Shown here piece by piece: positions 8,860 through 57,435 of a stretch of 64,000 nucleotides of DNA. The position numbers and the translations under genes are program-made. The DNA comes from Psammoneis japonica (Eukaryota). A model generated the notes under the pieces. That model was not told where the DNA came from and did no database searches. It was given only the letters and a program-made list of their open reading frames with translations. Positions within the stretch are counted from its first letter, which is position 1. Every line of letters begins with the position of its first letter. Location: positions 248,001 through 312,000 of the forward strand of contig QPGO01000062.1 of NCBI GenBank assembly GCA_008632985.1. Reading direction: 5' to 3'.

Positions 8860-11110
8860 CGAATTCAATGCCAAATTGTTTGGCATGTGCACCAGCATCA
8901 TGACAATGACCACACACCACGTTTGGGCAAGGAACTGGGTCTCTTTCAAGCCCTTCTTCATGAGCATGGTCCCATGAAATCCACTGAGTTGGTGTCTCAA
9001 CTGAGGAAGCCAAGTCCATGACAGGTGCAGGAGCGGTGCTTGCAAATGATGGGAGCTGCCTTCTCAAATGCAGCGAAGCAGTCAACACATTTTGCCTGCC
9101 ATCAGAACATGCCTTGCTCCTGCACATGGATGAGGGCATTGCCACCATGATTCGAGTGATCAACGAAAATGCTGCCTGTCAGTGTCCACTCTTAAAGCTG
9201 GCCTGTGAAAAGAATGGAGGAATCATGTGAGGCAACATGAAAGGAACAACTCAAGAAACAGCCAGGCTCTTTTTCAAGCCCGTGTGCAAAATCTTGTTGC
9301 CCCAAAGGATTGATTTGTCCCCCAAGCTCAAGGCTGCATTGAGCAGCAAGGAGAAGGAGGGCAGCAGCAGTGGTGCCAAGGTTGCTGACTTGGGCTGTGG
9401 ATGCACAAGCCAAAATGGAGATTGAAGGGGCCAAGCTGACCAATGCCGAAGCACGCTTGTGCAATTCCCATCAATGGGTCAAGCTGGGAGAAGAGGCAAC
9501 ACATGATGTTGTGACAGTCTTTGGCACCTTTTGCAACATGCACAATCCTCAGGGCATGGCTGTGACAGAGATCCCTGCATCCATGTGAGAATGACACTCT
9601 CCACTAAAACCCCCCTCACACTGGGAGAATCAAAAGCATGGTGAAAACAGGGTTGAAGATCTTCCAGTGCAGAAGAGAAGTGGTGAGAGGAGTCATGACT
9701 GCCAGACAGGCAGACATCAAAAAAGAAACAACAAATCCGTTTCTGCACCCAACACCACAAAATCCAAATCATCCACTCGTAAAACCAGCCCAGTGAGCCA
9801 TCAACATGAAGAGACCGGGAGATTGTTCAGAGCATGAGCAGGACAGCAAGCCAGGAGGTCTGCTGGGATGATGCCAGAGCACACTGTTGGGAGGCCTGCA
9901 AGACTGAGCCCAATCTAAGAAGAAATTGGGTGGGCGACCGGAACAGCGCCAATTTGGTGGAAGCAAGTTGCCAGGGAGGAGCAGCCAAGGCAACAACTGA
10001 CAACAACTCCAAGCAGTGCAATCCCCCACAATGGGGGGCTTGCAGCATTGGCAGGGTTGAGGTGAGCACAGTCCAAGACTGTGGATCCATTTGCCTCCTT
10101 TGAGGTGTGCAGAGAAGCCATCTGCACACGCGGTGCACAGACAGGAGCTTGCAATGTGAAATGTGTTGATGATCATCAAGGGAGTGCATTTTGATTGCAG
10201 CAATTGCCTTGTTCACAATGCATGCAATGTGTCTTGGCGGGTTGGTGGAGCAGACACAGCTGGGGGTCTGCATGGGGTGCCGGTTGCAGCAGCAGTTGGC
10301 AAAGTGCCATCTTGAGCTAATGCCAGGGACAGAGCAGCCTGCATTGGTGACAGTTTTGCTTGCCAGAACAATGCCATTGTCAAACGGGTGCCATTTGTGG
10401 GAGGCATCTTGAAGTTTCATTGCACTCAAAGAAATCAAACTGCACACAGGGCAGTTGATCTTGGATCTTTGATGGCACACCTTGTGCAGGATTGCTGTGC
10501 AAGCAGAGTGCATGCCATGCCACATGCAAAACATTGGCTGATGACACCAACAAAAGTGGCTGGATGAACAATGATGGATGTGTTGTCACGTTGACAGAGT
10601 GAAAGTGGGTGCATTGCAAACGCTCACTGCCAGTGTCAACAATGATGTGCTGAAAAGGTGTTTTGTTGTTTTGTGATGTGATGTGGCTGCTGGCAAGTGA
10701 AAGAGAGGCTCATGACCTGACAGAGATCCCTGCATCTGTTGTGCAGGAATGGCCCACTCCACCAACAGGCTGGTGTGGCTGAGGAGATTTTCAAGGCTCT
10801 CAAACCTGGAGGCATGGCGCTCATGATGATTGAACCATTTTTGAGCTTCAGCAATGCCGCCAAGGATTGCCTTGCAAACTTTGGGGTGCTGCATGTCAGA
10901 GCTGGAGGTTGTGCTTTTGTGCTCCATGTGGCATGACTGGAGACATGAGAAAGGATGGGCTGAGCACGAAGGTGGGGACAGAGCATTGCACTGAGATTTT
11001 CAAAGAAAAAGTCAGATTTTTGTCCATGGGTGCTTTTGGTGCCAATGCTGAAGGCAGCAAGGCTCTAAACTCCAATGATTTTCATCTCTTGCTGGCAACC
11101 AGGCAGAAGC
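8860..11110 (+). pseudogene. Decayed class I SAM-dependent methyltransferase (Rv2258c-like: wHTH plus MTase), split by a ~1.1 kb insertion
   Basis: RLGKELGLFQAL..HGPMKSTEL; FCLPSEHALLL; TARLFFKPVCK; motif I KVADLGCG (~9377-9402); C-terminal EIFKALKPGG..MIEP (~10785-10840). Stops and frameshifts present. 19-bp direct repeat at 9563-9581 and 10718-10736. Confidence 0.6.
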
Positions 11111-13080
11111 AGAGCTGCTCAAAGTGATCCTTTTTATGCTGTGTGCTCAAGGAGTGGGTCAAAAGCCTTCGCACATGTCACAATCATCTTGTCCATCAAA
11201 CGAACCGCATGATCACTCCTCCTGTCATCATCGGCACAGCAAGAGCGACTGTTGCCATCATTGCCATCACCACCATGAGCCCGCCCGAATCTCTCATCAT
11301 TGTCATTGTGCCAAAGATGATTGCCTTTGTCGTCATTGCCGTCGTTGTTGTTGCCACTGTTCAGCGGCGGCTGTCCCATGCTCTTGACCACATTGGCATT
11401 GATGAGATAAAACAAAAAGCACGAAATGGCACAGCCGCCACCTTCGGCCACCTTGCACTGGTTGTTTTTACAAAAGTGACTCCCACAGGCCAAAAATGTC
11501 AGCATGATGAACACAGCTGCCCAAATGCACATCCACAACAACCAACGCTCAAATGTCAGTTTGCTGAATTTGCAACAACAGGCCAAAAACAAGACCAAAA
11601 AGGAAACAAAGGCACAGTCACCATGAGTTCTGCGGCAGCAGGATTGTTCAGTGCACAAACAAACAAGCATGGGGAACTCAACCAATGCCAGTCATCAAGC
11701 AGAGACTCCAGCTCTGTTGTGACTCCTCCCATGGAGGGATGTCATGTGCCATGCAATGGATTGAGCTCCAGCAGTCAGTGAGAAATTGAACAGAGATGTG
11801 CACACGTGTGGTTCTTGGAAACGGAGGCACTGAGGACAGTGGTGAGACATGCCCAACTTGGCAGACTCAAACTGCTGTGACAAGGTGATTGACATGGCAA
11901 AGAAGTTGGAGAATGACAAATGACATTGCAAGGCACTAGAAACTGACAGCAGAAAATGCCAAACCTGCAAAGCACACGGTGCAGGAAAAAGGGGAATCGG
12001 CTGAGAGGAGCCAAGGATGGAGTGCAAGGATGGGATCATGAAGTGCAATGAACTGCACAAGTGGTTGACAAAAGACCAAGATGACAACAAAGGATTTGGT
12101 GCCTGACTCAAGAGGAATGGAGACAAGAGAAGGCAAACTTGTTGTCTGAGGAGGCAGAGAAGAAAAGCGCAAGAGAGAGGAGAAGAGGAAGGAGAGAGAC
12201 GGCGGGTGGGCCGCACCAATGGGAGAGGACCTGCCCTTGCAGCCAGTGGCTGCCAGCAACAGCATGGAGGCCATTGCAGCCATGGCAACAAATCAAACTG
12301 GTGTGCAAACATGAAGTGCAGCAAACAACAAAATCCAAAACAAGGCAAAAACAATGAGGAAAACTGCAAGACAGTTGTCAGCCAACACAACAAAGTGCCA
12401 ATGGCAGTTCTTGCAACATTTGCTTTTGGCAAAGCAACGAAAAGAGAAACAATGCAGAAAGAAGTGACAGGCAAAGATGGTGGATTGTGAGTGGCAAGAG
12501 ATGTGATGAAGGTGTGAGGAACAGCAAATGACAAAAAGGGTTGAGATTGAAGCTGTGGGTGAGAATGTTCGTGCTTCCAAGTGGGGCACAATTTAGAGAC
12601 AAGAAACTCACAAACTTGCTTGGTTCTCAACTAACATTCAAAGGAAGAAATGGCTCATGAGTTCACAATGATCTGGGATTGGAGTCAAGAAACACCCAGA
12701 TTGTGACAGGTGGTCAAACCCAGAGTGTTGGGCACCCCAGATGAAGTTTGGGGGGAAGGACAAAGCTGCTCTCTCTCAAGGCTGGGGGTGGTGCCCACCC
12801 CGCTGCTTTGTTGATGTTTGCTGTTTGTGCTTTTGCCACCTGCCAAAGCTTGGGCTGGACAGTGATGACCCACCAGGTTGCCCAGGCTTCAGAAAAAAAA
12901 AAATGGATCCTGTCAGGTTCATTCATCGTCGAAAAGCAAGCAAGACGGGAAGTTCTGACCTTCTGTCCTGCGTCCGGTGGTGTATGTGGAGCTCCAAGAT
13001 CCGCGAGAAAGATCGCATTGCGCATTATTGCGACGACCGTCCATTTCTTGTGTTGCATCCAACAAAGAGAGTTTATGACC

Positions 13081-13931: not shown

Positions 13932-14096
13932 GCGGGTTCTCTCTAGTACCTGTAGTAGACATATTATAGATGTGCTAGACGCCAACACGGAGGCATCAGA
14001 GCACATGTTTCAGAAGGCTTAGAATGATATAAATATAGGAATGAACTACAAGAGACGAAAATCTCTAAATTAGTTCACTATACGATAGCAGCTTCT

Positions 14097-19109: not shown

Positions 19110-19985
19110 CAATTGTGTCTGCACTTGCACATGCACGAGCTAATCGACCGCCGCGCCACCACTCCGATTTCTAATCTTGGATCGGAGTTGAGTCGTGGCG
19201 TGACTTTTGCACATGAAAAAAGACAAACAAGACACCACCCCGACATCCTCTTGGCTTTGTTTGTTCTTTTGTGATTGTGTTGCATCGTGTGCAGCACCAT
19301 GCACGCATTTGCACACGTGCTCTTCTTTGACATTGTTTCACACTCCCTGCTTTGTGAAGCTAAAAGCTTTTTGTTCTGTCAATTTGCAGAAGCTAAAATC
19401 AGCTCAGTGTGTTTCTTGGCATCCTCTGTTGAGGAGCGTGTGCCAGCAGAAATGACGCGCTGCCGCTCCAAGAATGAAAGATGAGGTGCAAATGCAAAGT
19501 GGCTCCTTGTCCTGCAGAGAATGATTGGCACAATCATTGCTTCACAATTGCACCACAGAGCTTGCGCTCAGAAATCTGCGCACAAATGTCAGAGGCTTGA
19601 GAGTGTCTCTGCCCTCGGCGCTGATGCCGCAGCTCTCAAAACATCTTTTTTTTTGTGCACCTGCTAGATCCCAGCTTTTTCCAACAGTGCACAACAAGAG
19701 GAAGAGACATGGCAGGAGAGCTGCACCTGCCTGTGCTGCCAGAAAGGAGAGACAGGACACAAAACCGTTGCCCGAGAGAGAGGAAAGCGGCAGCCGCTCA
19801 TCCAAAAAAAGACAGCACACTTCTTGCCATGAAGCTCTTGTTGTTGTTCTCTTTTTAGAGAAATTGTCATGCTCACAAATTGGGTGCATTAGATTTGCTT
19901 GTCCGCCACTGCGGTGGCTACCACAGCTGGAGACAATGCTTTGAGGTTCGTGAGCCAGACCATGATGTTGTTGTGTGTGTCATGT
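19110..19985. mobile_element. TpA-depleted block 2, ~0.9 kb unclassified relic between divergent genes
   Basis: Same composition as the other blocks, with residual TA mostly CTAA/CTAG/TTAG. No recognisable protein. Confidence 0.55.
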
Positions 19986-35762: not shown

Positions 35763-36199
35763 AGTAGCATTGGCTTTCACATGGTTGAATGCTTGCGTCT
35801 GCTGCGTCAACAAAGAATCAATACATTTATACATCGCAACTGTGTGAGAAGCGGGCGTTTCTGTTAGTTTTCTTAGGATTTACTCATTTAGGTATATTTA
35901 ATTTTATTCTTTCACCAGATAGCCTGTATCGTCAAACTATTATAAGATGACTGACGTTACCGTAGACCTACAGAGGTTACAGAATACATCCATTGGAACA
36001 AGAATCGTCAAAAAGTCACTGGTCAGCTTTGCAGTTTGAGCAAGAGCCATTTGTTTCATCACAACCGAATGGCACGCCGCTGTTCCGAGTCATTGCAATC
36101 AACTGTGCCCCGACACCATACGGGGTGATCGTTAACATGGTGAGGTGTGTTATGATGCCTTGGATTGGTTTGTTATGTTGTGTTGATGCACATTCTGCA

Positions 36200-38800
36200 A
36201 TTCGCTTTGTGGTTTCTCGATGCCTCTCATCTCTCATCGGCATTTCTTGCATCGTGACAGGTGCGACCGGCCGGCACACAGAATCGGTGTTGTTGTTTTC
36301 ACAATCCTGTGGATGGAATCTGGTGGAACAGCAAATGAGTGAGCAAGCATGCAACACAGCAACACCTCTGTCATGCCAGAGTTGAGAGTGTCCTTTTTCA
36401 TGTTGTCACGTGGAGCACCGCCCAGGGCTTGAACAAGCTCCACAGTTTGCACACCCAACTGAGTTTTTTGTTCATGCATTTTGTTGTTTGCATTGCAACC
36501 ATTGACAACTGCATTGGCTTCAAAGCAGCCTGGTTTCACCCCTTTTTTCCCCAGCAATGCTGGATTTTCTGGGGACCTTCCTGCATGAGCTTCGCATGCA
36601 CTCAAACACAATCCACGACTTGCCATGTTTTTCACTCTCTTTTTCACGGTGACTTGGATCTTCTGGAACTTTCAACAGCCAATGGACACCTGCTGCACTC
36701 ACACAAATGTTGAAAGATCCAATTTCAATTTTTTTTTTTCAGCCAAAAAAAAAAAGCCTGTGGCACTGGTGAGTGAAAGTAAAAGCTTGCGCCATTGTGA
36801 GCTTTGCATGCTGGGCAGCTCTTTCAACAGGATTGCTGTCATGCTGCAGGCCATTTGTGCATTGGATGAACCCAAAGACAGAGGCAGTTTGCACTTCTTC
36901 TTTGGATTCTTAAGATCCTGGGGCTTGTGGCCATTGACAGCTGCTGCAGTGCAGGCACCCTGATTGTCATGATTGCGCTCGACAACCATCTTGAGATTCA
37001 TCTGGCATGCCTTGAAGTCAGATGGCCTCACTTCATTCCCTCCAACCAGCAGCTTCCTGACTTCAAGTCATGTGCTGGGTGTTTCTTTGGAGAAGTCTGT
37101 GGCCTTCTTGGTCTCAGCCACAGGCCCTCCAAGATCCAGAGCTTGTTGTTTGCCTTTTGGCAGCAGAGCACTGGATGCATTGATCACAAGCAAAGTGACC
37201 ATGTCCAGTGCACTGCTTCCAGCCAGCAATCTCAGCATGTGTGCGATTCTTCTGAGAGCATGAGCTGCTGCAGCTGTGCCCTTGGCTTTGCCTCCCCAAG
37301 GCAGGGAAAACCTTGCATCCATTCTGGGCACAATTGGAGGATGGCTTGACAAAGGCCCATCCTGTGCCAAAAGCAGCTGGCTTTTTGAGCAGATGTTGCA
37401 CATGTGAACCACCTTGTCTGCACCACATCCAGGTCCATCATTTGGAAGTGTCACAATCAAGTTGAGGTCTGCCAGGCCACCACACACTGGGTTCCTCTCA
37501 ATTCACCCATTGCCCCCAACTCATCCTGGGTTCAATGCAGGAGCAGTGCTCCCATCATGACATTCTGAAGGTGCCAGAGCTCTGTCTTGAATGACTCTTC
37601 CAAAGTTGCCCACACCCATGCATGCACTTGAGTGGAGTGGTGGAAACAGAGTCATCTTCAGATTGGCTTTGTTGAGCTTGCCAATGCAAGGTCTGCTGCC
37701 ATGCTGGCAGCAATGCTCTGTCTTGAGTGACTCTTCCAAAGTTGCCCACCCATGCACGCACTTGAGTGGAGTGGTGGAAACAGTGTCGTAATCAGATTTG
37801 CTTTGTTGAGCTTGCTGATGCAAGGTCTCCTGCCCCGCTGGCAGCAGTGCTGTTGCCAAGCCCCTCCTGTGGCTGTGGTGGCTGCCCCTGCACAGTGTGG
37901 CAGTCAAAGAAAGCCCTGATTGCATTGAGCTTGTTGTTGGCAAGGTGTGGGAAATGAACAGCGTCATTGTCTGTGACATCCTCAGCAAGTCCCTTGACCA
38001 CAGCATTGCCCCAATCTCAGATGGCAGCACCTGGAAAATGTTGTCAGCTTTTGCAAAACCCTGTGCAGTGACACATGCTTGTGCTTTGGACTCACACCCA
38101 ACCCCATTGAGGCAGGCATTGAATGCTGTGGGGGCAAGCATGGTGGTGTGGAGTGCAGCCTCTTTTGCCCTCCTGTGCACCCAACAGGCAACAAAAATGC
38201 CAGCGGCAAATGCAAAGCACACCTGAGCACATCTTGACAACGCAGTTCACACATCACATCTTCTGAGGACAGTCGGCCATTTTTGTTGTGCTTTCAGATC
38301 TTCTGACAGAAGAAGCAAGTCGTCACACAGCTCTTTGTCTGTGCCGCGGTCAACTCACAAAAGTGTGGCAGCACAGCTGGATGATCATGGACGTGCAAGA
38401 ACCAGTGCTGGAAATCCCATGAACATCAAGGTGCTCCACATGCAAAGTGCAGGATTGCTGGTGTGGGGAGTCTGGAATTTTCTTGGCGTGTTTCATGAAG
38501 CAGCCAAAAAGGTGTGGTGGCTGGCAAAAACGTCAAAAAAAATTTCAAGACTTTGCCTTTTGTGCCAGGTTGGGCGAGTTCCATTCACAACGTTGGTGAC
38601 GTGTTTGTTGTCGACACTCTCATCCAGGCAGAGACCATGTGTGGTTTTGGCACGGGGCCCAAATCGAAACAAAGACGAGACAAATGGCTCACACAACTGC
38701 TCAGGTTGGTCCCTGTGCCTGGAACCAGCAATTAAAGATTGGCGCATGTGTGCGCGCTTCTTTGGAATTCTCTCTGCTCCAGACGTGCCATTCGATGGAG
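36200..38800 (-). mobile_element. TpA-depleted block 3: decayed LTR-retrotransposon gag-like relic with a 136-bp tandem duplication (37579-37850)
   Basis: Minus-strand fragments VHFPHLANNKLNAIRAFFDCHT, GWATLEESLKT, GWAFVK and GGPVAETKKATDF resemble diatom retroelement Gag. About 4 TA by eye. Confidence 0.55.
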
Positions 38801-44739: not shown

Positions 44740-45049
44740 ATTCACACTGCTGAAATAATGAAACTATAGACATTGGGTTGACACAACAAAAACCGTGTTT
44801 CCCATTACAGCAGCTCTAGCACTCCTGTTTTGAAGCATTTCTTGTTTGTCATGAGAACACAAAAAAGCCTGGCGTCGAGGAAACACCAACTTTTCTTCGC
44901 GAAGGGCTGTGAACCAACGTAGCATGCTCGTCGAAAACCCATTCACAGCTCTTTCTTTACGTGCAAAAGGAAGAGTGAGAGTGTTTCGAGGTCACAATAA
45001 GCAGTTCGTAGCTAGCTTTCTCTGTGCTACTTGATGGAAGGTCAGTCAG

Positions 45050-48000
45050 ATCTTCCCTCTCAGATGTCTGCCTGGCCAATCGGCTGAAGTCAATTTGAAT
45101 TTCATTGACCTCCAAGTTGCAAAATGCAAATCCGCAAGCATCACACTCATTTCAGTGATGGTGAGTGGAGACACCATGGCTCAATTTGGCCACCATTTTG
45201 TCTCCCACACCACCTCAAGACCAACAATTGGAGCATGTCTCTTGGTGTTGTGGTCATCAACAGCATTCCTTCCCGTGAATTGATTCCCTTGAATTGATTG
45301 TGTGGCCTTGGGGCAATCAAAGTTCTTCACACATGTGCCACCCCCCCCCCCCCCTGCTCACCTCCTTGTGTTTCCCCATTGTCTCATTCTGACACTTGTT
45401 TGTTCATCCTGCAGGTCACCATGATGAGACTCACCACATGGTCTGGCTCAGGTGATGTGAAAAGGCACATCTTTCAATGCACTGGTCCAAGCGCCAAAGT
45501 CACGGACTTCTTTGTCATTTGAGTGACTCCCCTCATGTCGTCACCCTTGACTGGCTCATGCCAGAATCACCACTTTTTCATCAATGCCACAGCAAAAATC
45601 TCTTTCTTCCACAGCTCAGTGGCATCTTTGAGAATGCAAAGCTGCCATCAAACACCATGCACAAGCTTTGTCATGCCATGTCGTTTCATTGCTTCAGCCA
45701 CAGAAGGAGGCCAACAGTTGTGCCCTTGTCGCCCAGATCCAAAGTTGACATTCATGCAGATGATCCTTTCCCTCCACAAGCTCAGCAACATGCACAAGAA
45801 TCCCAGAGATCACATTGCACATGATGCAGTGCTTGTTTGCAAAAGGCAGCGGCTCTTGCAAGGTGCAAGCACAAATCCCAAGCATGTGGTGTGTTTGTTT
45901 GTCCACACTGACATGGACACATCCAGATGGGACCACCACCCTGGCTTGAAACTCCCTGTGTGCAGCACTCCTCTTGCTCCACATGCCAACTGAAACACAC
46001 ACTTCCCAAAATCTCTGTTTGGGTGTTGGAGCAGAATGTCTTTGGCACATCACAAAGCCCTGAGAATGTTTTGTGCTCAAATCAAGCCCTCCTGTGCTCA
46101 TCACGTGCACTTTCCCAAAACTGCAGAGGTGTGCCGCCAAATTTGCTCACATCCTCTTTGACCAAAGCTCTTGATGCCATGTGCCAGCAAGAGGCAAGCA
46201 ACCTTGGGATAGAGCGATGATGCATCTGAACATTTTGGGTGAGGCGTGTGGCCAATTGCAACACCTTGGCATGGCATTTTTTGGTTTGGCAATCTCCTTT
46301 TGTGGTGCTTGCAAGTTGTGGCCAGTGACAAATTTGCTTTCTGGGCAAACCACAGAGAGCAATGGTTGCATTGCCCTTGCACAGCTTCCACTGCCTGATC
46401 AATGCAAAGCTCCGGCAAAGTGGAAAAAAGACTTGGTGCTTCATGCACTCTGGGATGTTGCGGCGCACCACAGAGCCCATGGCACAACACATGCTGCAGC
46501 AGTGCTGCAAATGCATGCCATGGAGTTGCAGGGGGGGGGCTCCCCAGCAGCTTGGCAAATCAGACATTTCAAAAGAGACCAAGCAAGCAATTGTGCATGT
46601 GGCACACACACTGTGATTTGCCATCAACGCACACACACAAAAAGACACATGATGGCAGCACATGCGCAGGCATGTGGTGGTGACATGAAAATGGGATTTG
46701 AGAAACTTTGGTGCAGCCAGTTCAGTGTGGGTCTGATCTGAAATGCAAGCCAACAACATGACTTTTGACACCCTGCCACAAGTCCATCTGACAGTTTGTG
46801 CAGCAGATTTAAAAAAAGGATGAGACAAGTTGCCTTTGATGTCTCCAACTCCCAGGAGTTAGAAGAAATGTCATGGGTGCTTGCATTCTCCCAATGACCA
46901 ACAACCAATTGTGTGGACAAAGAGGATTTGGGTGTCAACAACTGTGCTCACATGATCTGTGCAACAAAGGCAGTTAGATGGAGCAACATTGATCTCCCAG
47001 CAATGTCATGTCATCATCCACTGCAAAAAAAATGACAGTGCTTGCATGGCAAGAAGGCTTGCCCAATGTGTTGTGTCTTGCCCAAAAAAGAGGATGTTTG
47101 TGCTTGGACATTTGGAAAAAACCTTGGATTTTGGTCTGTGCATCTCTGCAAATGTGAAAAACTGTTCCTCTGGGGGAACATCTGGGCAGCAGCAGCACCA
47201 GCTGATGGAAAAGCTTTCCTCATTTCTGGTGGTGCAAAGGGAGCAGCAGGCACGCCAAAGTTTTTTTCTGGGGTGATGTGGGCAGCACAGAGTGCAAGCT
47301 GCATGTGTGCAAAGAATTCATGGTGCAGCAAGGGCAGCTTTGCTGAAGCCTCCCTGTCTTCAACATCTCTGGAACAAACACAGCAGACTTTGCAGGCTGT
47401 TGAGGTGCAGCGTTGCACAGAACTTCCAGGGGAAAAGGAGGCTTTTGCCATGACAGTGCACGCGGCAGGGCACAATGTGGGAAGAATCTGAAAGGGCAAA
47501 ATCAGTCAAATGGAGGCTGCTGTCATGTTTTGGACATGTGGGATGAGTTTTCAAGAGTCAGCAAGATGATGGCTGGGTGGAAGTTGCTGCTGTTCTCTCT
47601 GTCTTTCTTGAAACAAATTAAGTTGGCTTTTTGTTGATTCATGTTGGAGCTCTTGAGCACATCAATGGATGAAAACAAAGGCAGGACACCACAGCCATTG
47701 TGCCATTGGCACAAACACACAAATGCAGAAATTTTGGAGGGTCAATTTTTGTCAGTGTGCAATGTGCAGCCACTGACAAGAGCCAACGCATCACGGCGAC
47801 GTGTCACAGCCTTTAAATGTCACAAAGGGCGTGACAAAACAACCTTTTGTCTGCATGCATGCTGCGTTGAGGGGTTCGAAACCCTGAGTGGGAGTTGTCT
47901 GCAGCAACGTTGATCACTTTCGAACGCGCAAAACTCTGTGCAGTTCTGCACGTTCCTTCGCACACACCCACACTGTTCCGCCAAAACCGTGCAGTGTCAG

Positions 48001-51000
48001 CACATGTTTGTAAAGAGCCGCATGGACGCGTGACACATGGGGAGGAGTGCAACATGCAGCCACCAACAAGAGCCAATGCATCACGGCGATGTGTTGCAGC
48101 CTTTAAATGTCACAAAGGGCGTGACAAAATGGCCTTTTGTCTGCATGCACACTGCAAGTGGAGTCACCATGATGCTCTTGCTCCACTTCTTCACACTCAC
48201 AAAAATCTTCATCATTTGATGACTTCCTCCATTTCAAGTCCTGTGCTTTGGCAGAGAGCGATGTCTGCTGAAGTTTCAAAAATTGTGCTGGCTGAGCCTT
48301 TTGAATGCTCATCAATCAACCACCTGCTTGGCACTTTGAGTGTCTTTTTGCAGCTTGCACACTCTGTGGCCAAGACAAGTCTGCCTCTTGCTGCCATGCC
48401 AAAGAGTGTGAAAGAAAGAAAAAAAGATGTCGCACCTCACCATCTGGTTTTGCTGGTTTTTCATCTTTCTTTCTTGCATTTGGGTGAAGCACATTTGCTC
48501 ATGTTGCACCTCAGATTGCTCGTCAACAATGTGGCCCCAGCAGCAGGTGGTGGGTTGTCAAGAAGGGCTGACTTTCCTCCAAATGCTTTGCAGCATCTTT
48601 GTCGTCATGACAATTGCCACTTCTTGGTCATGATGCCTGCCCCCATCTCCTGCCACAAAACACTTGGGGCTTGGAAGCATTCTCTGCATTGTCACTTGAT
48701 GAGCACCCATTGCCCAGATTTGGAAGAGTTTTCACATTTGCTTGAGACCTTGTTTTCCCATCCTGTGGTGACGGTGTGTCATGGGACATTTTTGGTGCCA
48801 TCTGTTGCCCCCTCTGCTCCTTTGTTTCTGTCAAGAAAATGGCTTTTGAACCCTGTGCCACCACTTGCCTGGGCAAGGCCTCTTTTGTGGCACAACTCTT
48901 CCACACAAGCAAAAATCAACCTCATGACCATCTGGCACATGTCCAGGCTCTTGTTGTTGATTTGCACACTTTGTGACCACCCACAATTTTCATTGTTTTT
49001 TCAATCATGTGTCAGTCAGTCATGGAAGTGATTGCACAAGTTGACATTCTGTCTGGGTGGATGTGCACCATGTTGAGTGCACTGTTTCACAACTCAGACA
49101 TTGTGCAGTCATGTCAGGCCCACACCGCCAAACATGCTCATGTGCCACCACATTCTTTGCAATGTGCTGGTTTCTGCACATCTCAATGGATGTGGCACAC
49201 TCAGCCACAATCTGGCAACACTGGTTTGGACAACAGCTGTTGGCATGCTCGCAGCCCTGCTGACACAGAGTGCTTGTTGCAAGAGCTGGCTTCAATGAAT
49301 TGTGTCATTGCCAGCTAGTCCTGCACCTTTTTAAAGTCATGGCACACAGTTCCTGACCACAAATGGCCAGCGAAAGTGTCCGTCCATGCTGCTTTGTGAT
49401 TTGCACATTGCCAACAAAGCTGCCCCCATCATTGCAACAAAAAATTCTGGTGCTTGGAGCCCTGCAGAGAGAACAGCCTGCATGCTCATGCACACATGCC
49501 AAAAGCTTTGGATCTGTCACACTTCATCCGTTGGGGCGTCAGCATCACTGACTGCAGTGTTGGTTAAACTTTGCTGTCCTTGAAGTTGCCCCACTTGTCA
49601 CAGGCAGCACTTTCTGAAGTTTGATCTCAATCTCAGAAGCATGGGTTGCTTTGAAATGCCCAGTTGCTCGAAACAATGCAAACTGGCTCAAGTCATGCTC
49701 CCATCAATCCAGCCAGTGTGCTGGTGTGTCCACAGGGTTTGCAGCCCCCCTCTCCCCCTGTGTGTGTGTGTGTGTGTGTGTGTGGCTCCTGAGGAGGTGC
49801 CCCAGCAAGTCATTTTTGCCCCCCCCCCCCTGACAACTCCTGGGATTGTCCCACTTTTTCAAAAACAAAATGAACATGGCCATCAATGGAATTTTTTGGC
49901 AAGCTTCAAAAGACATTGAGTCAATTTGGTCACTGCAAATGACCACAGCAAGAGCAAGGAGGGGGCTGCTCCCACTTTTGTTTTGATGACATCGTGCAAA
50001 AAACACCACAAGAAACAAAAAGCTTGTGCCTCTTCATGTCCTCTTTGGCAAGTGTGTCACAATCCAAGCAATGAGTCCATGTGTGACACACACTCCACAC
50101 CAGACCTTTGAGGCATTTCTTGTCACAGTGTTTGGCACAATGAGAAAGCTCTGAAGTTGAGCGAAAATTCTGAAGCAGCAGCTGAAGAAGGCACATTGTT
50201 GTGAGCAAAGATGCTTGTTGCACTCAGAGCACCTGTGCCCCATGGCTCCAATGGCATTTTTCAAGACTTGCCAGGTGTTGCTTGCATTTGGTGCTGAGCA
50301 CTGATGCTGCTGCAACCCAGTCCCACAGGTGCAGCTTGGCTGTTGAAAACTGATTTTGCTGGTTCCTCCCACAGCAGCAGAAACTCTGGGCACAAAAAAA
50401 AGCAAGGGTGTGTGTGGAGCCCTGGTGAGATTGCACAGCATGAACACAAGTGCTGGGCTTTGGTGCTTGCCACTCAAATTGTTGCCATTTGGAAATGTTG
50501 TGCAGTCAATTGGAAACATGCACTCAAGGGGGGCATCAATGTGCAAAATGACTGTGCCCAGTTCTTGCCTTTGCAGACATCACATGCATTGTCACATTGT
50601 CTTGGTCTCTTGTTGCTTCCAGGTGTTGTGCTTGGCATGCTGTGGTCATGCAAACTTTCCTGGCTCCAGCATCAACACATGGCTGAAATGCAAAAGCACA
50701 AGCCTCAGCTGTTGACTCACAGCATGTTTGTTTTGTGTTGCCTTGATTGACTCACAAGGGCTCAGCTCACTGTGCTGCATTTTCTGCACATTTGTTGCAT
50801 GTTGCTCACTTGCAAGCTCCTCAAGGGTGTTGCTTCTTTGTGCTTGGTTTTGCTTGACCTAAAATCACATGTGATGCACTGCTGAACAGAAGCTGTGGTT
50901 GTCAGCACATGGTTTGTGCACTCGTTCTTTTTTGTTTGTTGTCTTCTTTTGTGCACAATTTGTTCAGACAGTTGTTGAGCTGCCAAATTGCAAATGAACA

Positions 51001-53261
51001 AACCACTGCTGTCTCAAAAAATTCGAGGGGCATGCTGGCATTTGTGTGCTGTGCTCATGTTTTTTGAACATGTGGCACTTTTTTTCTTCGTTGTTTGAGC
51101 TTCATTGTGCATCTTGTGGGGTTGCAAATGCTGTCATGATGGCAACTGCATTGTGCAGCTGCAGAGATCAGCTCATGTTGCGGGCATTTTGCGGTCATGA
51201 GTTCACGGCTTGGAGCTGTCAGACCTTTTTTTTGTTCCTCTGGTTGGGTGCAGTGCAGTTGTGCACAATGACCACACAACAGCACCACATCACAAGCCAT
51301 GCTGGAAGAGCCACAGACTCTGCAGATGTGTTGTTTCTGCTGCAATTTTCTCTGTCTCTTTCTGCAAGACCAACATTTTGTTTCTTGCATCATCTGTCAT
51401 TGCCAGTTGCCTGCAGCAAAACAGCAGCACAATTTTCAGTCAGCCACAAATTGCAACAGATGGAAGCAAATAATCTGTTGCAGCTCTTGTTGTGTTTCTG
51501 TGCAGCTCAATGTTTTCCAACCCTTTGTTGGCTTTTGTTGCTTCACTTCTCTTCAGTTGTTTGCACATTGAAGAGCACAAGCAAATGAGAAGGCCCAGTG
51601 CTCTTCTCTTGCTTGGTGCTTCCACATTGTGCTTTGTGCCTGCATCAACAAGTTGAGGGCTTTGTGCCCTTCCAGCAGCTGGTGCTTTTGTCATGGCTGC
51701 CTTCTGCAAAATGATTGTCTGCAGCAAAAAGCACAAAGGCCTTGCACCCTTCTTGCAACAAATGGCACTCAGATCCTTCATCAGCAGGTGGGAAAAGAGC
51801 GTGCCTTTTCTGACCTCAACTCAGATGGCATGGTGACATGTTCCCAGCTTTGGACACAGCTCCAGCTGTGAACAAACAGCTTGGAGACACCACTCCCTTG
51901 TGATTTGTTTTGCTTTCTTGATGTGCTGGTGTGTGACACACACTTTTGTCTCATTGTGTGCAGATTGAAGACAGTGGGTTTGGGTGTCGCAGAGAATGTC
52001 TGTGGCAAGAGGATGCTCTCATTGCTGTGCTTGAGTGCAACACAACCCACTTGACTTGCAGTTGTGGCAGGTGCAACAATGCTGCATGCCTGGTGCAACC
52101 AGCTGAGAGCTTTTCTTGTGGTTGAGTGTGGCCTCAACTGCCACAGCTTGGGCCCCATTTGCAGCACCACACATCAATGCACTCCAGCCCTGGGTGGGAC
52201 TCCTTGTGACATGGGGGCTCACAGAATTTTGTGTGCAAGTTCTGCAGATCATGTGCTGGATGACAAGCACATTTGCCCTTGACACCCAAACAAACAACCA
52301 AGTTTGTTGTGCAATTGCTGCACCTCTTCACACTCTGGGTTTTTGAAAATCTGCCTGCACGGCACATTGCACAAAAAATCAAAGTGGTTGAATGGATTGC
52401 ACAAAAAATGTTTGCACTGCAACACAATGCAAAATGCCACCAAAAAGTCTCACAAGAAAAGTTTGTTTGCATGATGCGCAGTGCATCAGAAAAAATGTCA
52501 GTGCATCACAGCCCAGCAATGGCAGGAGGCCCAACCATTTTTGTTGTGAGGGGTTGTTGCTCTGCAACCCAAAACTCAGGGCTCACTCTGCCTTCTCCCA
52601 ATTCTGGGCTGTTTTCTCCACAGCTTTTTCAGAGTGTCTTGCAAGCTGGAAGAGCCAGCACCACTGTCTGTGTTTGACGTGTTGCAGCCCCAGGTGGGAG
52701 CTTGCAGTGCTGATGTGTGACACAATTTTTTTTGTCATCCGTTGCATGTTTCGCACACACATTTCTACGTGTGATCTTGCAAAAAATTGTTCCAGACTTG
52801 CTGTTTTGCGAAACCTCAGATGTTTTGTTCAACAAAATCATGGGAACACAAATGTGCCAGGTGCATTCTTTGACATGTGAAGAATGTGCCTGGCTGAGCA
52901 AAAGACACTGCACTTCAATCATGGACGAGTTTGTGCGTTTGCAAAATTTCCTCATTTTCTGTTGGTGATCATTGACACACACCAATTGCTCAACAATTTT
53001 GCTTTGGAGCTTGCACGTAGAATTCCATGGGCCCAATGTCACATGGATTTCCACCTGCATCTGGAGCGCATCGTTTTCCCATCACATGTGCCACTTGCAA
53101 GTTGCTGCTGCCAAAATGTCATCATTGACACAAGCACTTCTTTGTCATCTCTTTGTTGAAAGTTGCCACACATTGTGCACTTGATGCGATCAGATGGTTG
53201 TTGGCCGCTTGAGCAATTGGAGATGTGCACAACTGTTTTGCTGCAGCAGTCTGCCCCACCC
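45050..53261. mobile_element. TpA-depleted block 4, left part: unclassified decayed repeats
   Basis: About 15 TA in about 8 kb by eye. No recognisable family. Contains a ~100-bp direct repeat at 47757-47859 and 48047-48149. Confidence 0.65.
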
Positions 53262-53501
53262 TGACAGGATTTGAACAAGATTTTAGTTTGTCACACACAA
53301 TTGCTTGTGCTCTCAGTTCCGTGCGAGACGCGCAATGCAGTTTGGCTTTTGAGCCACATGGCTCACAAGAACAACAACAGCGCCAGCACCAACATCAACA
53401 ACACCAGTCTTTTGGCTCCTGTGATGGTGTCTGCATGGAGACTCATCTGCCATTTAGAAAGCAACAAGGAGTCATTGTTTTCTTCCACCCAGTCATCTTC
53501 A
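53262..53501 (+). repeat. 5' LTR (alignable part)
   Basis: Aligns with 56596-56842. True 3' end uncertain. Confidence 0.85.
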
Positions 53502-54810
53502 ATTTCTGTCAGATTGACAATCTCACTCATTTTCATCCATTGAGCATTCATCATCATCGAAAATCTTTGACAACACACACCATTGGCGGTGGAAGTGCAT
53601 GTCCACCTTCTTTGCTGCCACCTCAACAATTCTGACTGGCCACCCGAATCCCACGAGTTGTGTGGTCACTTCGTTGGCATTGCCGAACACGTTGGTCATC
53701 ACATGACATTCAAGATTCTTTCTGACGATGCTCAGAAGATTCTCTGCCGCTCAAATGTGCATTCCGCCTGTGATCCGTCCACTCCCAACCTGTGTCTTGA
53801 TCCTCCTGATGAGGAATCTGCTGAACCCGTCATCAAATCCCAACATGACTCCAAGGATTCACCAGATTCTTCAGATGGAGGGGTGATCAGGATGCCCAAA
53901 ATGCCGGTCTTTGACCCCAAGGACATCATTGGATGCACCTTCCTGCCTCATGAAGCCACAAGAGGATGGACAATGCCACAGAGCTCGTGTTGTCAAAGCC
54001 GTTGAGGACCATGGTGACTGGAAAATTGGAGACAACCCCAAACTGGTCAAGTTCATTTGCTCTGTCAACAATGGTGGGTGCGAGGAAGTCCCAGCCTGCA
54101 ATGACATCATGCACCACATCAAGCAAGAAGACGAGGACACTGCCCTCTGGAAACTCCGATGCATGGCATCGCAAAAAGGACCATTGCAACCTCATGATCC
54201 ATCTTGGAAAGGCTCAAGCTACAATGTCATGCTTGAATGGGAGAATGGGGAGATCATCACGTCTGAACCCCTTGCCATCATTGCCAAGGACGATCCTGTC
54301 ACCTGCGCCATTTGCACACGCGAGCACAGTTTGCTTGAGACCAATGGCTGGAAACGCTTGTTCCGGACTGCAGCTCTGTGCCAGAAGAAGCTGTTCCACA
54401 TGGCCAATCAAGCCAAGTTGCGCTCCTTTTGCACTGTGCCACAGTGCAAGTGCGGGCATGAAGTGCCCCGGGACTGCAAGCACGCCTTGGTCCTTGATGA
54501 GCGCAATGGCAACCGCAAGTGGGGAGATGCAACAGAGCACGAGATGACTCAGCTTGATGAGTGTGAGGTCTTCCATGACTGTGGACATTGCAAGGATTCC
54601 AGCGCTCCACAAGGACACAAGAAGATTCGGGTGCATCTCATCTGCGACGTTGAACATGACAGATGGCACAAAGCAAGGCTTGTTGTCAACACGGACACCT
54701 CACAGATGCCCTGTCAACAGTGTCCATTCCAGAGTGGTGTCTCTCCACGGCCTGCGAATGATGATCTTCCCAGCCAAACTCAAAGAACTGGAGACTTGGG
54801 CTGCCAACAT

Positions 54811-55203
54811 GACGGGTTCCAGTCCTAGGTGGGACTCCGTGTGACATTGGGCCCGTAGAATTCTACGTGCGAGCTCCGTAGTACGAGAATTTAATTAATG
54901 TATACATTTATCTTCAACATCAAATAAACTGCCAAGTTTGTGGTACAATTATGCCTCTTGCCACTCGACGTTTTTGCAAATGCGCCTGCCCTACGCGATT
55001 CTTAAGACATTATAGAATCGCGCTGTAACAAAAAATGTCAAAAGTTGTTGGACGGATCGCTCAATAAGTGTGCCGTAAAATGACACAAAATATCGAAAAA
55101 ATCACGTAGAAATCTACGTGCGCGACATACGACGTGGTTCAAAAAACTGTCGATGTCACAGTTCAGTAGTGCGAGGTCCCACCTGCTAGACCTGGAACGC
55201 GTC
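54811..55203. mobile_element. MITE inserted in the copia RT
   Basis: Imperfect TIRs: gacgggttccagtcctaggtgggac versus reverse complement gacgcgttccaggtctagcaggtgggac. TSD is ACAT (54807-54810 and 55204-55207), or CA if the ends are 1 bp longer. Removing it restores WAANIGGACLEA. Confidence 0.9.
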
Positions 55204-56595
55204 ACATTGGGGGTGCCTGTCTTGAAGCTGCAACCAAGGAGAAACTGCACATTGCAGCAGGCCCCAAATCAGGTGAGCTGGAAGGACACATCCTTGTCAT
55301 CCACAAGGCCTCACACGGACTTCGCAGCTCTGGCCTCAGATGGCATGAACACTTTGCCAATTGCTTGCATGCCGAGGGCTTCTTCCTGTGCAAAGCCAAA
55401 CCCAACATCTGGCTGTGTGGGAGTGATGACCACTGCAAGCATGTGGCAGTGTGTGTGGATGACCTGGCCTTTGCCGTGAAGGAACCCCAGGCTTTTGCAG
55501 ACACTCTCATGTGGAGAAGTGCAAGTTCAAGCTCAAGGGCACTGGACCATTGGAGTTCTGTCTTGGTTGCAACTTCACCTGCGATCCAGATGGCGCCCTG
55601 TGCCTTGCTCCTCATGAGTGCATTGAGTCAAGGTTGAAAACTGTGCATGCCTCTTTGGAGAGAAGCCCCACACTGATGTGCTTTCAACCCTTGACAAGGG
55701 AGACCACCCTGAGCTCAACACCTCCGAATTGCTCAAACCGGAGGGCATCCACCAACTCCAATCCTTGATTGGTTCCCTGCAATGGGCTGTGTCTCTTGGT
55801 CACATTGACATCACTGCAGCTGTCATGCCCTGTGCAGCTTCTGTGCAGCACCCCATCAAGGCCACCCAGACCGCGCCAAATGCATCCGCGGATTCCTCTC
55901 CAAGATGCGTCATGGTGCCCTCCGAGTGTGTGCCGAGGAGCCCAGCTGTTCGGACCTTCCCAAGCCCGTGTGTGACTGGGCCCAATCTGTGCATGGGGAG
56001 GCAGAAGAGCTGCTCCAGCAAGATGCACCCTGGCCACTTGGCAAATTTGTCACCATGACACACTGCGTTGATGCGAACTTGTTCCATTTCATGCTCCTCG
56101 CTGGACGCTCTGTCACCGGCATCCTTCATTTCCTCAACAAGTTCCCGGCTAATTGGTTCTCCAAGAAACAAGCAACAGTTGAGACTGCTGCACATGGACC
56201 TGAGTTTGTTGCCACAAGGATGTGCGTTGAGCAGATCATTGATCTGCACATCACTTTACGTTGCCTTGGCATCCCCATTCATGAAACATGTCACATGTTT
56301 GGGGACAACAAGTCGGTTGTGGACAGCGCTGCCACCCCGCACTCCCAAGTTGCACAAGTGACACACCACCCTCTCATTCCATCATGCACGTGAGGCAATT
56401 GCTTCCAGTTTCCTCAAGTTTCATTTCATCGAAGGTTCCCGCAACCCTGCTGACATCCTCAGCAAGCACTGGCTGGGGTTGCTCCCAGGTCTGGAACCTC
56501 CTTCGTCCTCTGATGTTTTGGAACTTTGATCCCGAGGCTTTCAACCAATCTGACCTTGAATCCATTGCTGTCAACCCCTCAAGCAAACTGGGGAG

Positions 56596-56842
56596 TGACA
56601 GGATTTGAACAAGATTTTAGCTCATCACACACAATTGTGTGTGCTCTCAGTTCCGCGCGCGATGCTCGATGCAGTTTGCTTTCGAGCCACACGGCTCACA
56701 AGAACAATGACAGCAGCATTGACATCAATGACACCAGTCTTTTGGCTCCTGTGACAGTCTCTGCATGGAGACTCATCTGCTGTTTAGACAGCAGTGAGGA
56801 GTTGTTGTTTTCTTGACCCAGTCTTCCACCCAGTCATCTTCA
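56596..56842 (+). repeat. 3' LTR (alignable part)
   Basis: Follows the PPT-like tract and aligns with 53262-53501. Confidence 0.85.
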
Positions 56843-57435
56843 AGAATTTCCATGTCACACCCCCCTTTGAGATTCTCTTTGCATCTGTGGATGCCTCAAA
56901 GCTCTGCACAGCAGTTGAGAGCCACTCTTGAAATTCTGCACACTTCTCCCCTTGTGAGGTGGGTGCACACACCCACATCTTTTTTCTGCACCAGCTCTCT
57001 CTGGCAGTGATGTCTCACAGCTGAAGTCACCACCAAGAATGAAAATGTTCTTTTTTTGGGCCTCTTCAGGATTGCCCAAATTGCTTTTTAAAGCAGCTTT
57101 TCTTGTGAAGCTTTTCCAAGGCCCTTTTTGCATGCAATCACAGTGTAGAGGAACCACTGCATGGCTCATGTGTTGGTTCTTGTCACTCACATGCAGCCTT
57201 GGCCTTGCCTTGCCTTCCTACAGTACAACCATGAAATGTCTGTCAGTTCCACGTCTTGTCCACGTCAGTGGTTCGCTCGCTCGCGCCTCAGCGCACACGA
57301 ACATAACATGCTCGTCGTGAGATTGCAGTGGGTTTCGATTTTGTGAGGTGACCATTGAATCAGCTGCATCCACCGTCTTTCTTTTGCGTTCGGCAGTGTG
57401 TGGCCGAAACAAGTTAGCTGTAGGAACGTTAAGGC

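What the first reader, a model, noticed from the sequence alone, without database searches (positions are those of the whole stretch)
53911..56520. Conserved tyrosines of the copia pol are systematically Cys or His, including catalytic YVDD->CVDD
Seen, compared with the copia consensus as I recall it: AYLEA->ACLEA (tgt 55218), KLYI->KLHI, ALYGL->ASHGL (tca cac 55311), VYVDDL->VCVDDL (tgt 55452), KYKFKLKG->KCKFKLKG, HYVDAN->HCVDAN, ATYGSE->AAHGPE, LRYLG->LRCLG, KYKYGYEVPRDY->QCKCGHEVPRDC and LDEY->LDEC. TAY->TGY is A->G on the sense strand and TAY->CAY is the same change on the antisense strand. This shows the ancestral dinucleotide was TA, not CG. The mixture of Cys and His argues for DNA-level, strand-symmetric change rather than ADAR editing of the RNA genome, which would be one-strand A->G.
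Basis: partly seen in the sequence, partly recalled or inferred. Interest (0 to 1): 0.9.

Follow-up and report, generated by a model that had tools for sequence, protein, structure and literature searches.

The report
TpA-erasing hypermutation in diatom transposons
A dead jumping gene in a diatom genome has had nearly every TA step in its DNA rewritten to TG or CA, which turned its tyrosines into cysteines and histidines; this is the coding read-out of a wider, apparently undescribed mutation process that strips TA and CG from transposon DNA and leaves neighbouring genes untouched.

Summary
At 24 columns where intact relatives have a consensus Tyr, the window keeps Tyr once and has Cys 11 times and His 7 times, including YVDD->CVDD. 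Most other residue classes are kept at 76-100%.

The effect is not specific to codons or to copia. Five segments totalling 24.7 kb hold 58 TpA against 1606 expected and 339 CpG against 1476 expected, with TpG and CpA doubled. Their borders are sharp, and the genes between them are normal.

The change happened in DNA after insertion:
- The two LTRs differ by 8 CA-versus-TG double differences.
- Old copies of a TIR element lost 45 of 46 TpA, while a young copy inside the copia is untouched.
- Other genomic copies carry the alternative state at the same sites.

TG and CA outcomes are equal in number and randomly interleaved. The preferred target is the A:T pair in 5'-TAY-3'. TpA loss is faster than CpG loss and separable from it.

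The enzyme is unknown. Eight literature searches found no prior description. The process works like fungal RIP run in the opposite chemical direction.

The parts
53262..53502 (+). 5' LTR of the degenerate copia-type element
   Evidence: Direct repeat with 56596-56843 at 82% identity. TG...CA ends read directly from the sequence.
53571..54811 (+). pol part 1: integrase C-terminus and RT N-terminus, with a frameshift near 54700. The gag-PR-IN part upstream is missing.
   Evidence: tblastn: residues about 1040-1436 of the 1881-aa relative P0003. Frames.
54812..55203 (+). Young, unmutated 392-bp element with terminal inverted repeats (MITE-like), inserted in the RT
   Evidence: TIRs. 25 TA and normal CG (23-24 CpG steps in aligned columns). 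The HMM segmentation cuts it out exactly. P0003 residue 1436 continues across it. A contig of run X1 bridges 54801->55204 without it.
55204..56472 (+). pol part 2: RT core (CVDD at 55452-55463) and RNase H, in at least 4 frame segments
   Evidence: tblastn to P0003 residues 1436-1856. Pfam RVT_2 E 0.0041, 17.2 bits, below the cut-off of 31.6. Frames.
56596..56843 (+). 3' LTR
45032..57212 (.). TpA/CpG-depleted domain 3, holding the copia. It is interrupted only by the young element at 54812-55203.
   Evidence: HMM segmentation: 45032-54811 has TA 18, CG 124, TG 1165, CA 1150. 55203-57212 has TA 6, CG 40, TG 211, CA 219.
3391..12925 (.). TpA/CpG-depleted domain 1
   Evidence: TA 25, CG 118, TG 1098, CA 1015. 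No Pfam domain in its ORFs.
36176..38730 (.). TpA/CpG-depleted domain 2
   Evidence: TA 3, CG 37, TG 298, CA 287.
19201..19984 (.). 784-bp depleted island between two normal genes
   Evidence: TA 6, CG 20, TG 88, CA 76. Most surviving TA that I read lie in CTAA, CTAG or TTAG contexts.
52177..52536 (+). Old, mutated copy A of the same TIR element
   Evidence: Transition-tolerant alignment. TA kept 0/22 (CA 8, TG 6). CG kept 1/23 (TG 9, CA 7).
52676..53071 (-). Old, mutated copy B of the same TIR element
   Evidence: TA kept 1/24. CG kept 3/24.

Best explanation
The region is a dead, 5'-truncated Ty1/copia-type (CoDi-like) retrotransposon in a diatom nuclear genome. After it inserted, its DNA went through a site-by-site, strand-symmetric transition process. 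The same process acted on about 24 kb of other non-genic, transposon-derived DNA in the window. It converts the two self-complementary pyrimidine-purine steps, TpA and CpG, into TpG/CpA.

Shown:
- The direction of change is TA->TG/CA and CG->TG/CA.
- It acts on DNA, after insertion, and independently in each copy.
- It is confined to sharply bounded segments.
- Strands are used equally, with no strand-coordinated runs.
- The preferred target is the A:T pair in 5'-TAY-3'. The fitted rate by the 3' neighbour of the A is T 3.6 > C 2.2 > G 1.1 > A 0.4.
- TpA loss runs to about 97% while CpG loss is still partial.

Inferred:
- The CpG part is ordinary decay of methylated CpG in silenced transposons.
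- The TpA part is a distinct and faster pathway, probably enzymatic and directed at silenced transposon DNA.
- My first guess for the TpA chemistry is deamination of adenine in DNA (A->I, read as G) by an enzyme that prefers a 5' T, as the ADAT/TadA family does on RNA. The second guess is a modification of the partner thymine that makes it pair with G.

Tyr->Cys/His, Thr->Ala (T|ACN->T|GCN), Arg->Cys/His and the loss of TAA/TAG stops are all by-products.
For: Composition:
- The depleted segments (24,668 bp) hold 58 TA against 1606 expected and 339 CG against 1476 expected, with TG 2860 and CA 2747. Normal DNA of the window holds 1555 TA against 2640 and 2032 CG against 2077.
- The books balance against 69 intact relatives. 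Per 1000 dinucleotides, 47.7 TA and 17.7 CG are lost, and 33.3 CA and 31.2 TG are gained.

Coding:
- Tyr is kept in 1 of 24 columns (Cys 11, His 7). 65 of the 111 changed conserved columns are explained by a single TA or CG event.

DNA level, after insertion:
- The LTR pair has 237 aligned positions and 30 mismatches. 21 of these lie in 8 CA/TG doubles, 4 CG/TG pairs and 1 CA/CG pair.
- The two old TIR-element copies kept TA at 0/22 and 1/24 sites. The young copy inside the copia is intact.
- In DNA run X1, contigs identical to this copy have about single-copy depth (50-90 against 59). Other copies differ by 44 transitions among 51 variable places, including adjacent CA<->TG pairs at 53473/4, 55931/2 and 56572/3. 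They read TAT at the YVDD codon (55453 G>A, 76% of the depth there). One MITE-free copy reads N-A-H-L where the window reads G-A-C-L.

Not native to the family:
- 79 metagenome loci of intact relatives have a median TA o/e of 0.70 and a minimum of 0.49. None has a 600-bp window below 0.12.

Context:
- No ATAT, GTAC or ATAC/GTAT survives, against 502 in 38.6 kb of normal DNA. TTAA and CTAA/TTAG account for 32 of the 53 survivors.
- Where only one strand carries TAY, 18 of 22 known fates change that A:T pair (p 0.004).

No strand runs:
- The runs test gives z between -0.6 and 2.3.

TpA loss is faster than CpG loss and separable from it:
- The copia keeps about 2.5% of the relatives' TA density but about 61% of their CG density.
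- Other database relatives lost Tyr but kept Arg: P0014 Y 0/9 and R 7/8, P0241 Y 3/15 and R 15/16, P0253 Y 4/28 and R 28/36. Controls are P0003 Y 45/48 and P0153 Y 46/48.
Against: - No enzyme that does this to genomic DNA is known to me, and no host genome was available to look for one.
- Ancestral states come from relatives at 40-65% protein identity and from 'normal' window DNA used as the expectation. The rate and context figures are therefore approximate.
- About 20 kb of the depleted DNA has no recognisable transposon protein: 0 of 68 ORFs gave a credible Pfam hit. That this DNA is transposon-derived rests on the two MITE relics, the copia and the shared signature.
- Only one window of one genome was seen.
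- Run X1 is probably the same organism, and perhaps the same sample, so it is not independent support. Contigs also under-report variants.
- Active enzymatic targeting has not been separated from passive hypermutability of TpA in silenced chromatin.
- Two of 8 Y-preceded Tyr codons and 2 of 11 MITE sites go against the TAY direction rule.
Confidence: 0.8

Rival explanations
1. Collateral damage of CpG repair. Deaminated 5mC gives T:G mismatches. Non-canonical mismatch repair then resynthesises patches with an error-prone polymerase such as Pol eta, which writes G for A after a T or A (the WA->WG signature of antibody hypermutation; recalled knowledge).
For: This route also gives A:T->G:C with a 5' T. 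It is confined to methylated DNA. It can outrun CpG loss, because most repairs restore the CpG. TpA and CpG loss occur together in every depleted segment of the window.
Against: The AA half of the WA motif is untouched. AA is 62.4 against 72.3 +/- 11.9 per 1000 and AG is 57.9 against 61.4. Lys is kept in 20/23 columns and Asn in 10/12. The strong 3'-neighbour effect (T > C > G > A) is not a feature of WA that I know of. Relatives with Tyr gone and Arg intact exist.
Confidence: 0.08
2. Editing before integration. An ADAR-like enzyme edits the element's RNA, or a deaminase edits the single-stranded cDNA as APOBEC3 does on retroviruses.
For: A->G with a 5' U/T preference resembles ADAR (recalled knowledge). 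Editing before integration would also give sharp borders at the element's ends.
Against: - Outcomes fall on both strands in equal numbers, with no runs.
- The two LTRs carry opposite states at 8 sites.
- DNA-transposon relics and DNA outside the LTRs (56844-57212 and 45-53 kb) are affected alike.
- The exact mutated copy is single-copy, while unmutated copies exist.
Confidence: 0.03
3. Native composition. The DNA comes from an element lineage, a virus or a donor genome that avoids TA and CG, and nothing was mutated in place.
For: TpA is under-represented in most genomes. The depleted DNA is about 48% G+C, like its surroundings.
Against: - Conserved Tyr residues, including the one in YVDD, are replaced. 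The pol is frameshifted and truncated.
- Intact relatives have normal TA content.
- Young and old copies of one TIR element differ exactly at TA and CG.
- Copies of the same copia family in the genome still read TAT at the YVDD codon.
Confidence: 0.03
4. Passive chemistry. TpA in tightly silenced diatom chromatin is intrinsically hypermutable, for example because a repair pathway is excluded, and no dedicated enzyme is involved.
For: Sites change independently and without strand runs, as in slow decay. Partly converted relatives exist: P0151 Y 14/38 and P0253 Y 4/28.
Against: The estimated rate is roughly 200 times the LTR background. The figures are -ln 0.025 = 3.7 for TpA against 9 non-YR mismatches in 237 positions for two lineages, and several-fold above CpG decay. 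Spontaneous adenine deamination is slower than cytosine deamination (recalled knowledge). A young element sits unmutated inside the domain.
Confidence: 0.06

Closest known systems
Repeat-induced point mutation (RIP) of Neurospora and other fungi
   Same: Both are DNA-level, confined to repeated or transposon DNA with sharp borders, and dinucleotide-specific. Both produce transitions that can go to saturation, kill coding capacity and blur similarity between copies.
   Different: RIP is C:G->T:A at CpA, so it makes TpA and lowers G+C. Here A:T->G:C at TpA destroys TpA, and G+C stays near 48%. The RIP indices are inverted: TpA/ApT is 0.042 and (CpA+TpG)/(ApC+GpT) is 2.02. The host is a diatom. 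Dependence on duplication or on a sexual phase was not tested.
Decay of methylated CpG (5mC deamination) in silenced transposons
   Same: The CG->TG/CA half of the signature matches. So do the confinement to transposon DNA, the site-by-site strand-symmetric pattern and the faster loss in A/T flanks.
   Different: It cannot touch TpA. Here TpA loss is more complete than CpG loss and occurs in relatives that keep their Arg codons.
ADAR hyper-editing and APOBEC3 editing of retroelements
   Same: Both are transition hypermutation of retroelements. ADAR gives A->G with a 5' U preference (recalled knowledge).
   Different: Those act on RNA or on single-stranded cDNA before integration, mark one strand, and do not touch DNA transposons. 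Each of these points fails here.
ADAT/TadA adenosine deaminases and the base editors derived from TadA
   Same: The natural TadA target is an A preceded by U and followed by C (U33-A34-C35 of tRNA-Arg). Early TadA-derived DNA editors preferred YAC. A trypanosome ADAT2/3 was reported to deaminate C in DNA as well. All of this is recalled knowledge, not from a call.
   Different: No natural member is known to edit genomic DNA. Here TAT is hit at least as well as TAC. No such gene could be looked for, because no genome is held.
Thymine modification at TpA (5-hydroxymethyluracil of dinoflagellates, base J of kinetoplastids)
   Same: These enzymes modify T at TpA steps on both strands in silent or repetitive DNA (recalled knowledge).
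   Different: They are not known to be mutagenic to saturation, and are not known in diatoms. Telomeric J sits in YTA contexts, whereas here the T that changes is preferentially in RTA.

Membership tests
Ty1/copia LTR retrotransposon (Pfam RVT_2, diatom CoDi-like) | Reverse transcriptase of the RVT_2 (PF07727) type | tested here: met
   The window's RT piece alone scores below the Pfam cut-off (17.2 against 31.6 bits). It matches 232 longer proteins at E <= 0.001, and every one of the 120 listed carries PF07727 (best E 4.8e-33). phmmer gave 2446 hits.
Ty1/copia LTR retrotransposon (Pfam RVT_2, diatom CoDi-like) | Domain order IN-RT-RNase H, flanked by LTRs | tested here: met
   The element is collinear with residues about 1040-1856 of 1881-aa polyproteins. 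LTRs lie at 53262-53502 and 56596-56843. gag, PR and most of IN are missing. No target-site duplication was found.
Ty1/copia LTR retrotransposon (Pfam RVT_2, diatom CoDi-like) | Intact catalytic YVDD and an open reading frame (an active element) | tested here: not met
   The motif reads CVDD (55452 TGT). There are at least 5 frame changes, a 392-bp insertion and a 5' truncation.
Fungal RIP | C->T at CpA, giving TpA excess and CpA/TpG deficit | tested here: not met
   The opposite is seen. TpA/ApT is 0.042 and (CpA+TpG)/(ApC+GpT) is 2.02.
Fungal RIP | Acts on duplicated DNA during the sexual phase through RID/DIM-2-type methyltransferases | not testable with these tools
   No host genome is held and no crosses are available.
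ADAR-type RNA editing of the retroelement genome | A->G on the transcribed strand only, fixed before integration, so both LTRs are identical | tested here: not met
   Cys:His is 11:7 and TG:CA is 2860:2747. The LTRs differ by 8 CA/TG doubles. DNA-transposon copies are affected.
Methyl-CpG decay | CG->TG/CA confined to silenced DNA | tested here: met
   CG is 339 against 1476 expected in depleted DNA and 2032 against 2077 in normal DNA. Arg goes to His 8 and Cys 8. Methylation itself was not measured.
Methyl-CpG decay | Accounts for all of the excess TpG/CpA | tested here: not met
   Per 1000 dinucleotides, lost CG is 17.7 and lost TA is 47.7, against a TG+CA gain of 64.5.

The most novel reading that the evidence does not exclude
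Diatoms possess a genome-defence mutator with no known counterpart. It would be an enzyme system that finds silenced transposon DNA and converts the A:T pair of 5'-TAY-3' to G:C on either strand. It would do this by deaminating adenine in DNA or by modifying its partner thymine. In effect this is RIP run backwards. It would be a natural genomic A:T->G:C editor, and it would explain TG/CA-rich, annotation-resistant 'dark' DNA in diatom genomes.
Probability: 0.4. Interest if true: 0.95.

Novelty: new variant of a known kind. Interest (0 to 1): 0.87.

Why it matters
- Every known transposon-directed DNA mutator (RIP, APOBEC) and methyl-CpG decay drives C:G->T:A. A process that drives A:T->G:C at one dinucleotide, to saturation and only in transposon DNA, needs chemistry not known to act on genomic DNA in nature. 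Its enzyme would interest both mutation research and base editing.
- It gives diatoms, a major group of ocean primary producers, a second layer of transposon inactivation beside methylation.
- It makes old transposons invisible to similarity and domain searches. Here 0 of 68 ORFs in the other depleted DNA were recognised.
- It removes TAA and TAG, so gene callers emit long spurious ORFs. Several 'proteins' in public catalogues (P0014, P0100, P0141, P0241, P0253) look like such read-throughs.
- The signature is easy to scan for: TpA/ApT far below 0.1 with TpG and CpA doubled.

Tried and rejected
- Whole genome: none is held. I could not search for deaminase, TET/JBP or methyltransferase genes, and could not make a genome-wide copy census.
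The source organisms of the other mutated relatives are therefore unknown.
- Earlier findings of this scan: five look-ups returned nothing that bears on this.
- A2 alignment, 33.6 kb against 38.8 kb: both copies lie outside depleted DNA, so it was uninformative.
- Pfam on 68 ORFs of the other depleted DNA: no credible hit. The one match was a sub-threshold EII-Sor.
- tblastn of 256 relatives on the whole window: hits fall only at 53571-54820 and 55197-56596.
- Metagenome scan: the search patterns both contained Tyr, so it returned only intact relatives. These served as controls but could not reveal mutated loci.
- Genome contigs: the alignment was not conserved enough. A degenerate DNA pattern then found 3 loci, none depleted.
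- Sequencing runs: no RNA holder was listed, so nothing can be said on expression.
- Complex prediction and structure tools were not used, because no protein question arose.
- Pol eta-type WA mutagenesis, RNA or cDNA editing, native composition and artefact were considered and rated low (see rivals).
- Artefact: locus-specific contigs of run X1 match the window with 0 differences. Genes and a young insertion inside the domain are normal.
- Literature: eight searches and term look-ups in PMC2806351 and PMC4504042 (passages only) found no description of TpA->TpG/CpA in transposons. The hits were fungal RIP, ADAR and base-editing papers, seen as listings and abstract starts only.
Full report
What is there.

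Window 53262-56843 is a degenerate LTR retrotransposon of the Ty1/copia type.
- Two LTR-like direct repeats (53262-53502 and 56596-56843, 82% identical) flank a pol remnant.
- The remnant is collinear with residues about 1040-1856 of 1881-aa polyproteins.
- All 120 listed longer relatives carry Pfam RVT_2. The window's own RT piece scores below the Pfam cut-off (17.2 against 31.6 bits).
- gag, protease and most of integrase are missing. The rest runs through at least five frame changes.
- A 392-bp element with terminal inverted repeats is inserted at 54812-55203.
- The host is a diatom. The named relatives of the window's HSP90 are all diatoms, at 72-76% identity (Phaeodactylum, Seminavis, Fistulifera, Nitzschia, Mayamaea). 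No database protein is closer than 80%. Other genes in the window are compact and ordinary.

The observation.

I collected 150 relatives by phmmer. I set aside the 10 with under 2.5% Tyr and laid the other 140 on the region by tblastn. I kept 442 columns where at least 60% of at least 5 relatives agree.
- Tyr is kept in 1 of 24 columns. It is Cys in 11, His in 7, Phe in 2, and Trp, Val and Leu in 1 each.
- Arg is kept in 13/31 (His 8, Cys 8, Trp 1, stop 1), Thr in 9/21 (Ala 8), Ile in 12/20 and Met in 0/2.
- All other residue classes are kept at 76-100%. Tyr against the rest gives p = 5e-14.
- The YVDD tyrosine is TGT at 55452.
Three of its recalled 'consensus' tyrosines are only plurality or minority Tyr in my set.
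- 65 of the 111 changed columns are explained by one event of the type TA->TG (22), TA->CA (11), CG->CA (21) or CG->TG (11). Thr->Ala is the cross-codon case T|ACN->T|GCN.

It is not about codons.

A 1-kb dinucleotide profile shows stretches where TpA o/e is 0.00-0.08 and CpG o/e is 0.04-0.46. In these stretches TpG and CpA are 1.6-2.3 and G+C is unchanged.
- A two-state segmentation gives 3391-12925, 19201-19984, 36176-38730, 45032-54811 and 55203-57212. It also gives a 137-bp blip that I take for chance.
- It cuts out the young 392-bp insertion to the base.
- Together these segments hold 58 TA against 1606 expected and 339 CG against 1476 expected, with TG 2860 and CA 2747. The rest of the window holds 1555 TA against 2640 and 2032 CG against 2077.
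- Borders are 100-200 bp sharp. One segment is a 784-bp island between two normal genes.
- Against the homologous pol DNA of 69 intact relatives the accounts balance. Per 1000 dinucleotides, TA falls by 47.7, CG falls by 17.7, CA rises by 33.3 and TG rises by 31.2. AA and AG are unchanged.
- Intact relatives have normal TpA. In 79 loci the median o/e is 0.70 and the minimum 0.49, and no 600-bp window falls below 0.12. The scan's patterns contained Tyr, so this set was biased towards intact copies.

Level and timing.

1. The two LTRs, identical at integration, differ at 30 of 237 positions. 21 of these lie in 8 CA-vs-TG doubles, 4 CG-vs-TG pairs and 1 CA-vs-CG pair. Only 9 lie elsewhere. A CA facing a TG is what two independent hits on one ancestral TA or CG give.
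2. The TIR element has no RNA stage. Two old copies lie in the depleted DNA (52177-52536 on the + strand and 52676-53071 on the - strand). Against the young copy they keep TA at 0/22 and 1/24 sites, with CA/TG at 14 and 9 of them. They keep CG at 1/23 and 3/24.
3. In DNA run X1, which comes from the same coded organism and is possibly the same sample:
- Contigs identical to this copy have single-copy depth (50-90 against 59). The family as a whole sums to thousands.
- 44 of the 51 variable places are transitions, including adjacent CA<->TG pairs.
- 76% of the depth at 55453 reads A, which restores TAT at the YVDD codon.
- A MITE-free copy reads N-A-H-L where the window reads G-A-C-L and relatives read N-A-Y-L.
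- At TA sites of the young MITE, 32-61% of the family depth reads TG or CA.
4. TG and CA are interleaved at random, with runs z between -0.6 and 2.3. There is no strand-coordinated run that a processive single-strand editor would be expected to leave.

These results exclude RNA or cDNA editing and native composition for the copia and the TIR element.

Specificity.

- Of the 53 surviving TA, 32 are in TTAA or CTAA/TTAG. None is in ATAT, GTAC or ATAC/GTAT, which number 502 in the normal DNA.
- An additive two-strand model gives rates by the 3' neighbour of the adenine of T 3.57, C 2.23, G 1.14 and A 0.44. For CpG, a 5' T roughly doubles the rate. Both rest on gene-rich DNA as the expectation, so they are approximate.
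- Where only one strand carries TAY, that A:T pair is the one changed in 18 of 22 known cases (p 0.004). The cases are Tyr codons preceded by a pyrimidine (Cys 6, His 2), old MITE copies (9 of 11) and MITE family variants (3 of 3).
- The flank-class comparison with relatives agrees. For YTAY, TG rises by 11.4 and CA by 5.3.

Relation to CpG loss.

- The copia keeps about 61% of the relatives' CG density but about 2.5% of their TA density. Older parts of the domain have CG o/e as low as 0.04.
- Other relatives in public catalogues show the same Tyr->Cys/His with Arg largely intact: P0014 Y 0/9 and R 7/8, P0241 Y 3/15 and R 15/16, P0253 Y 4/28 and R 28/36, P0151 Y 14/38 and R 48/51.
- Others have lost both: P0100 Y 0/7 and R 1/5, P0141 Y 0/5 and R 1/4.
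- Controls keep both: P0003 Y 45/48 and P0153 Y 46/48.
- TpA loss is therefore faster than CpG decay and separable from it. Partial states exist, and the phenomenon is not limited to this one element. I could not learn which organisms those proteins come from.

Mechanism.

The CpG half fits decay of methylated CpG. Methylation was not measured here, so this is inferred.

For the TpA half I know of no process that fits, and three points bear on it:
- With the LTR background as a clock, the TpA rate is of the order of 200 times background. This points to an enzyme.
- The target A carries a 5' T, as in ADAT/TadA substrates (recalled knowledge). This is why I put DNA adenine deamination first and thymine modification second. 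Neither is shown.
- A Pol eta-type by-product of CpG repair is unlikely, because AA is spared.

Comparison and novelty.

Functionally this is closest to fungal RIP, but each defining feature of RIP that I could test is inverted. Eight full-text searches found only RIP, ADAR and base-editor papers. Term look-ups in the diatom CoDi paper (PMC2806351, passages) and the Phaeodactylum chromatin paper (PMC4504042, passages) gave nothing relevant. I rate it a new variant of repeat-directed hypermutation with unprecedented base chemistry.

Limits.

- Only one window was examined, and no host genome is held.
- Ancestral states are inferred from distant relatives.
- Run X1 is not independent.
- 20 kb of the depleted DNA is unidentified.

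Noticed in passing
window 54812-55203: The 392-bp TIR element appears to belong to a very abundant family. Summed contig depth in run X1 is about 200,000 against about 59 for unique DNA. The LTRs reach 50,000-109,000 and the copia interior 3,000-18,000. Summed depth is not a copy number, but the host genome appears rich in these families.
   Followed up: partly
window 3391-12925, 36176-38730, 45032-57212: Because TAA and TAG are nearly absent (97 against 1180 TGA, both strands), depleted DNA carries long stop-free frames in all six frames. Database 'proteins' such as P0014, P0100, P0141, P0241 and P0253 look like gene calls on such DNA.
   Followed up: partly
protein P0151: This partly converted relative has Arg at 5 of 38 consensus Tyr columns. 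That would need both letters of one TA changed (TAY->CGY). The window shows none of this.
   Followed up: no
window 32423-33168: Internal tandem-like repeats of about 110 bp (73-85% identical) lie inside the ORF 32080-33672, which carries a helicase-associated (HA) domain.
   Followed up: no
window 33609-33924 and 38766-39095: A 73%-identical repeat pair, both copies with normal TA and CG. One copy sits directly at the edge of depleted domain 2.
   Followed up: no
window 54800-54811: The copia flank left of the young insertion reads differently from MITE-free copies of the family in run X1. Those read W-A-T-D-I-G across the site, as relatives do. I found no clean target-site duplication.
   Followed up: no
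window 37579-37851, 39307-39529, 47757-48155: Short direct or tandem repeats (88-89% identical). Two pairs lie inside depleted DNA and one (39307-39529) lies in the normal DNA beyond domain 2.
   Followed up: no
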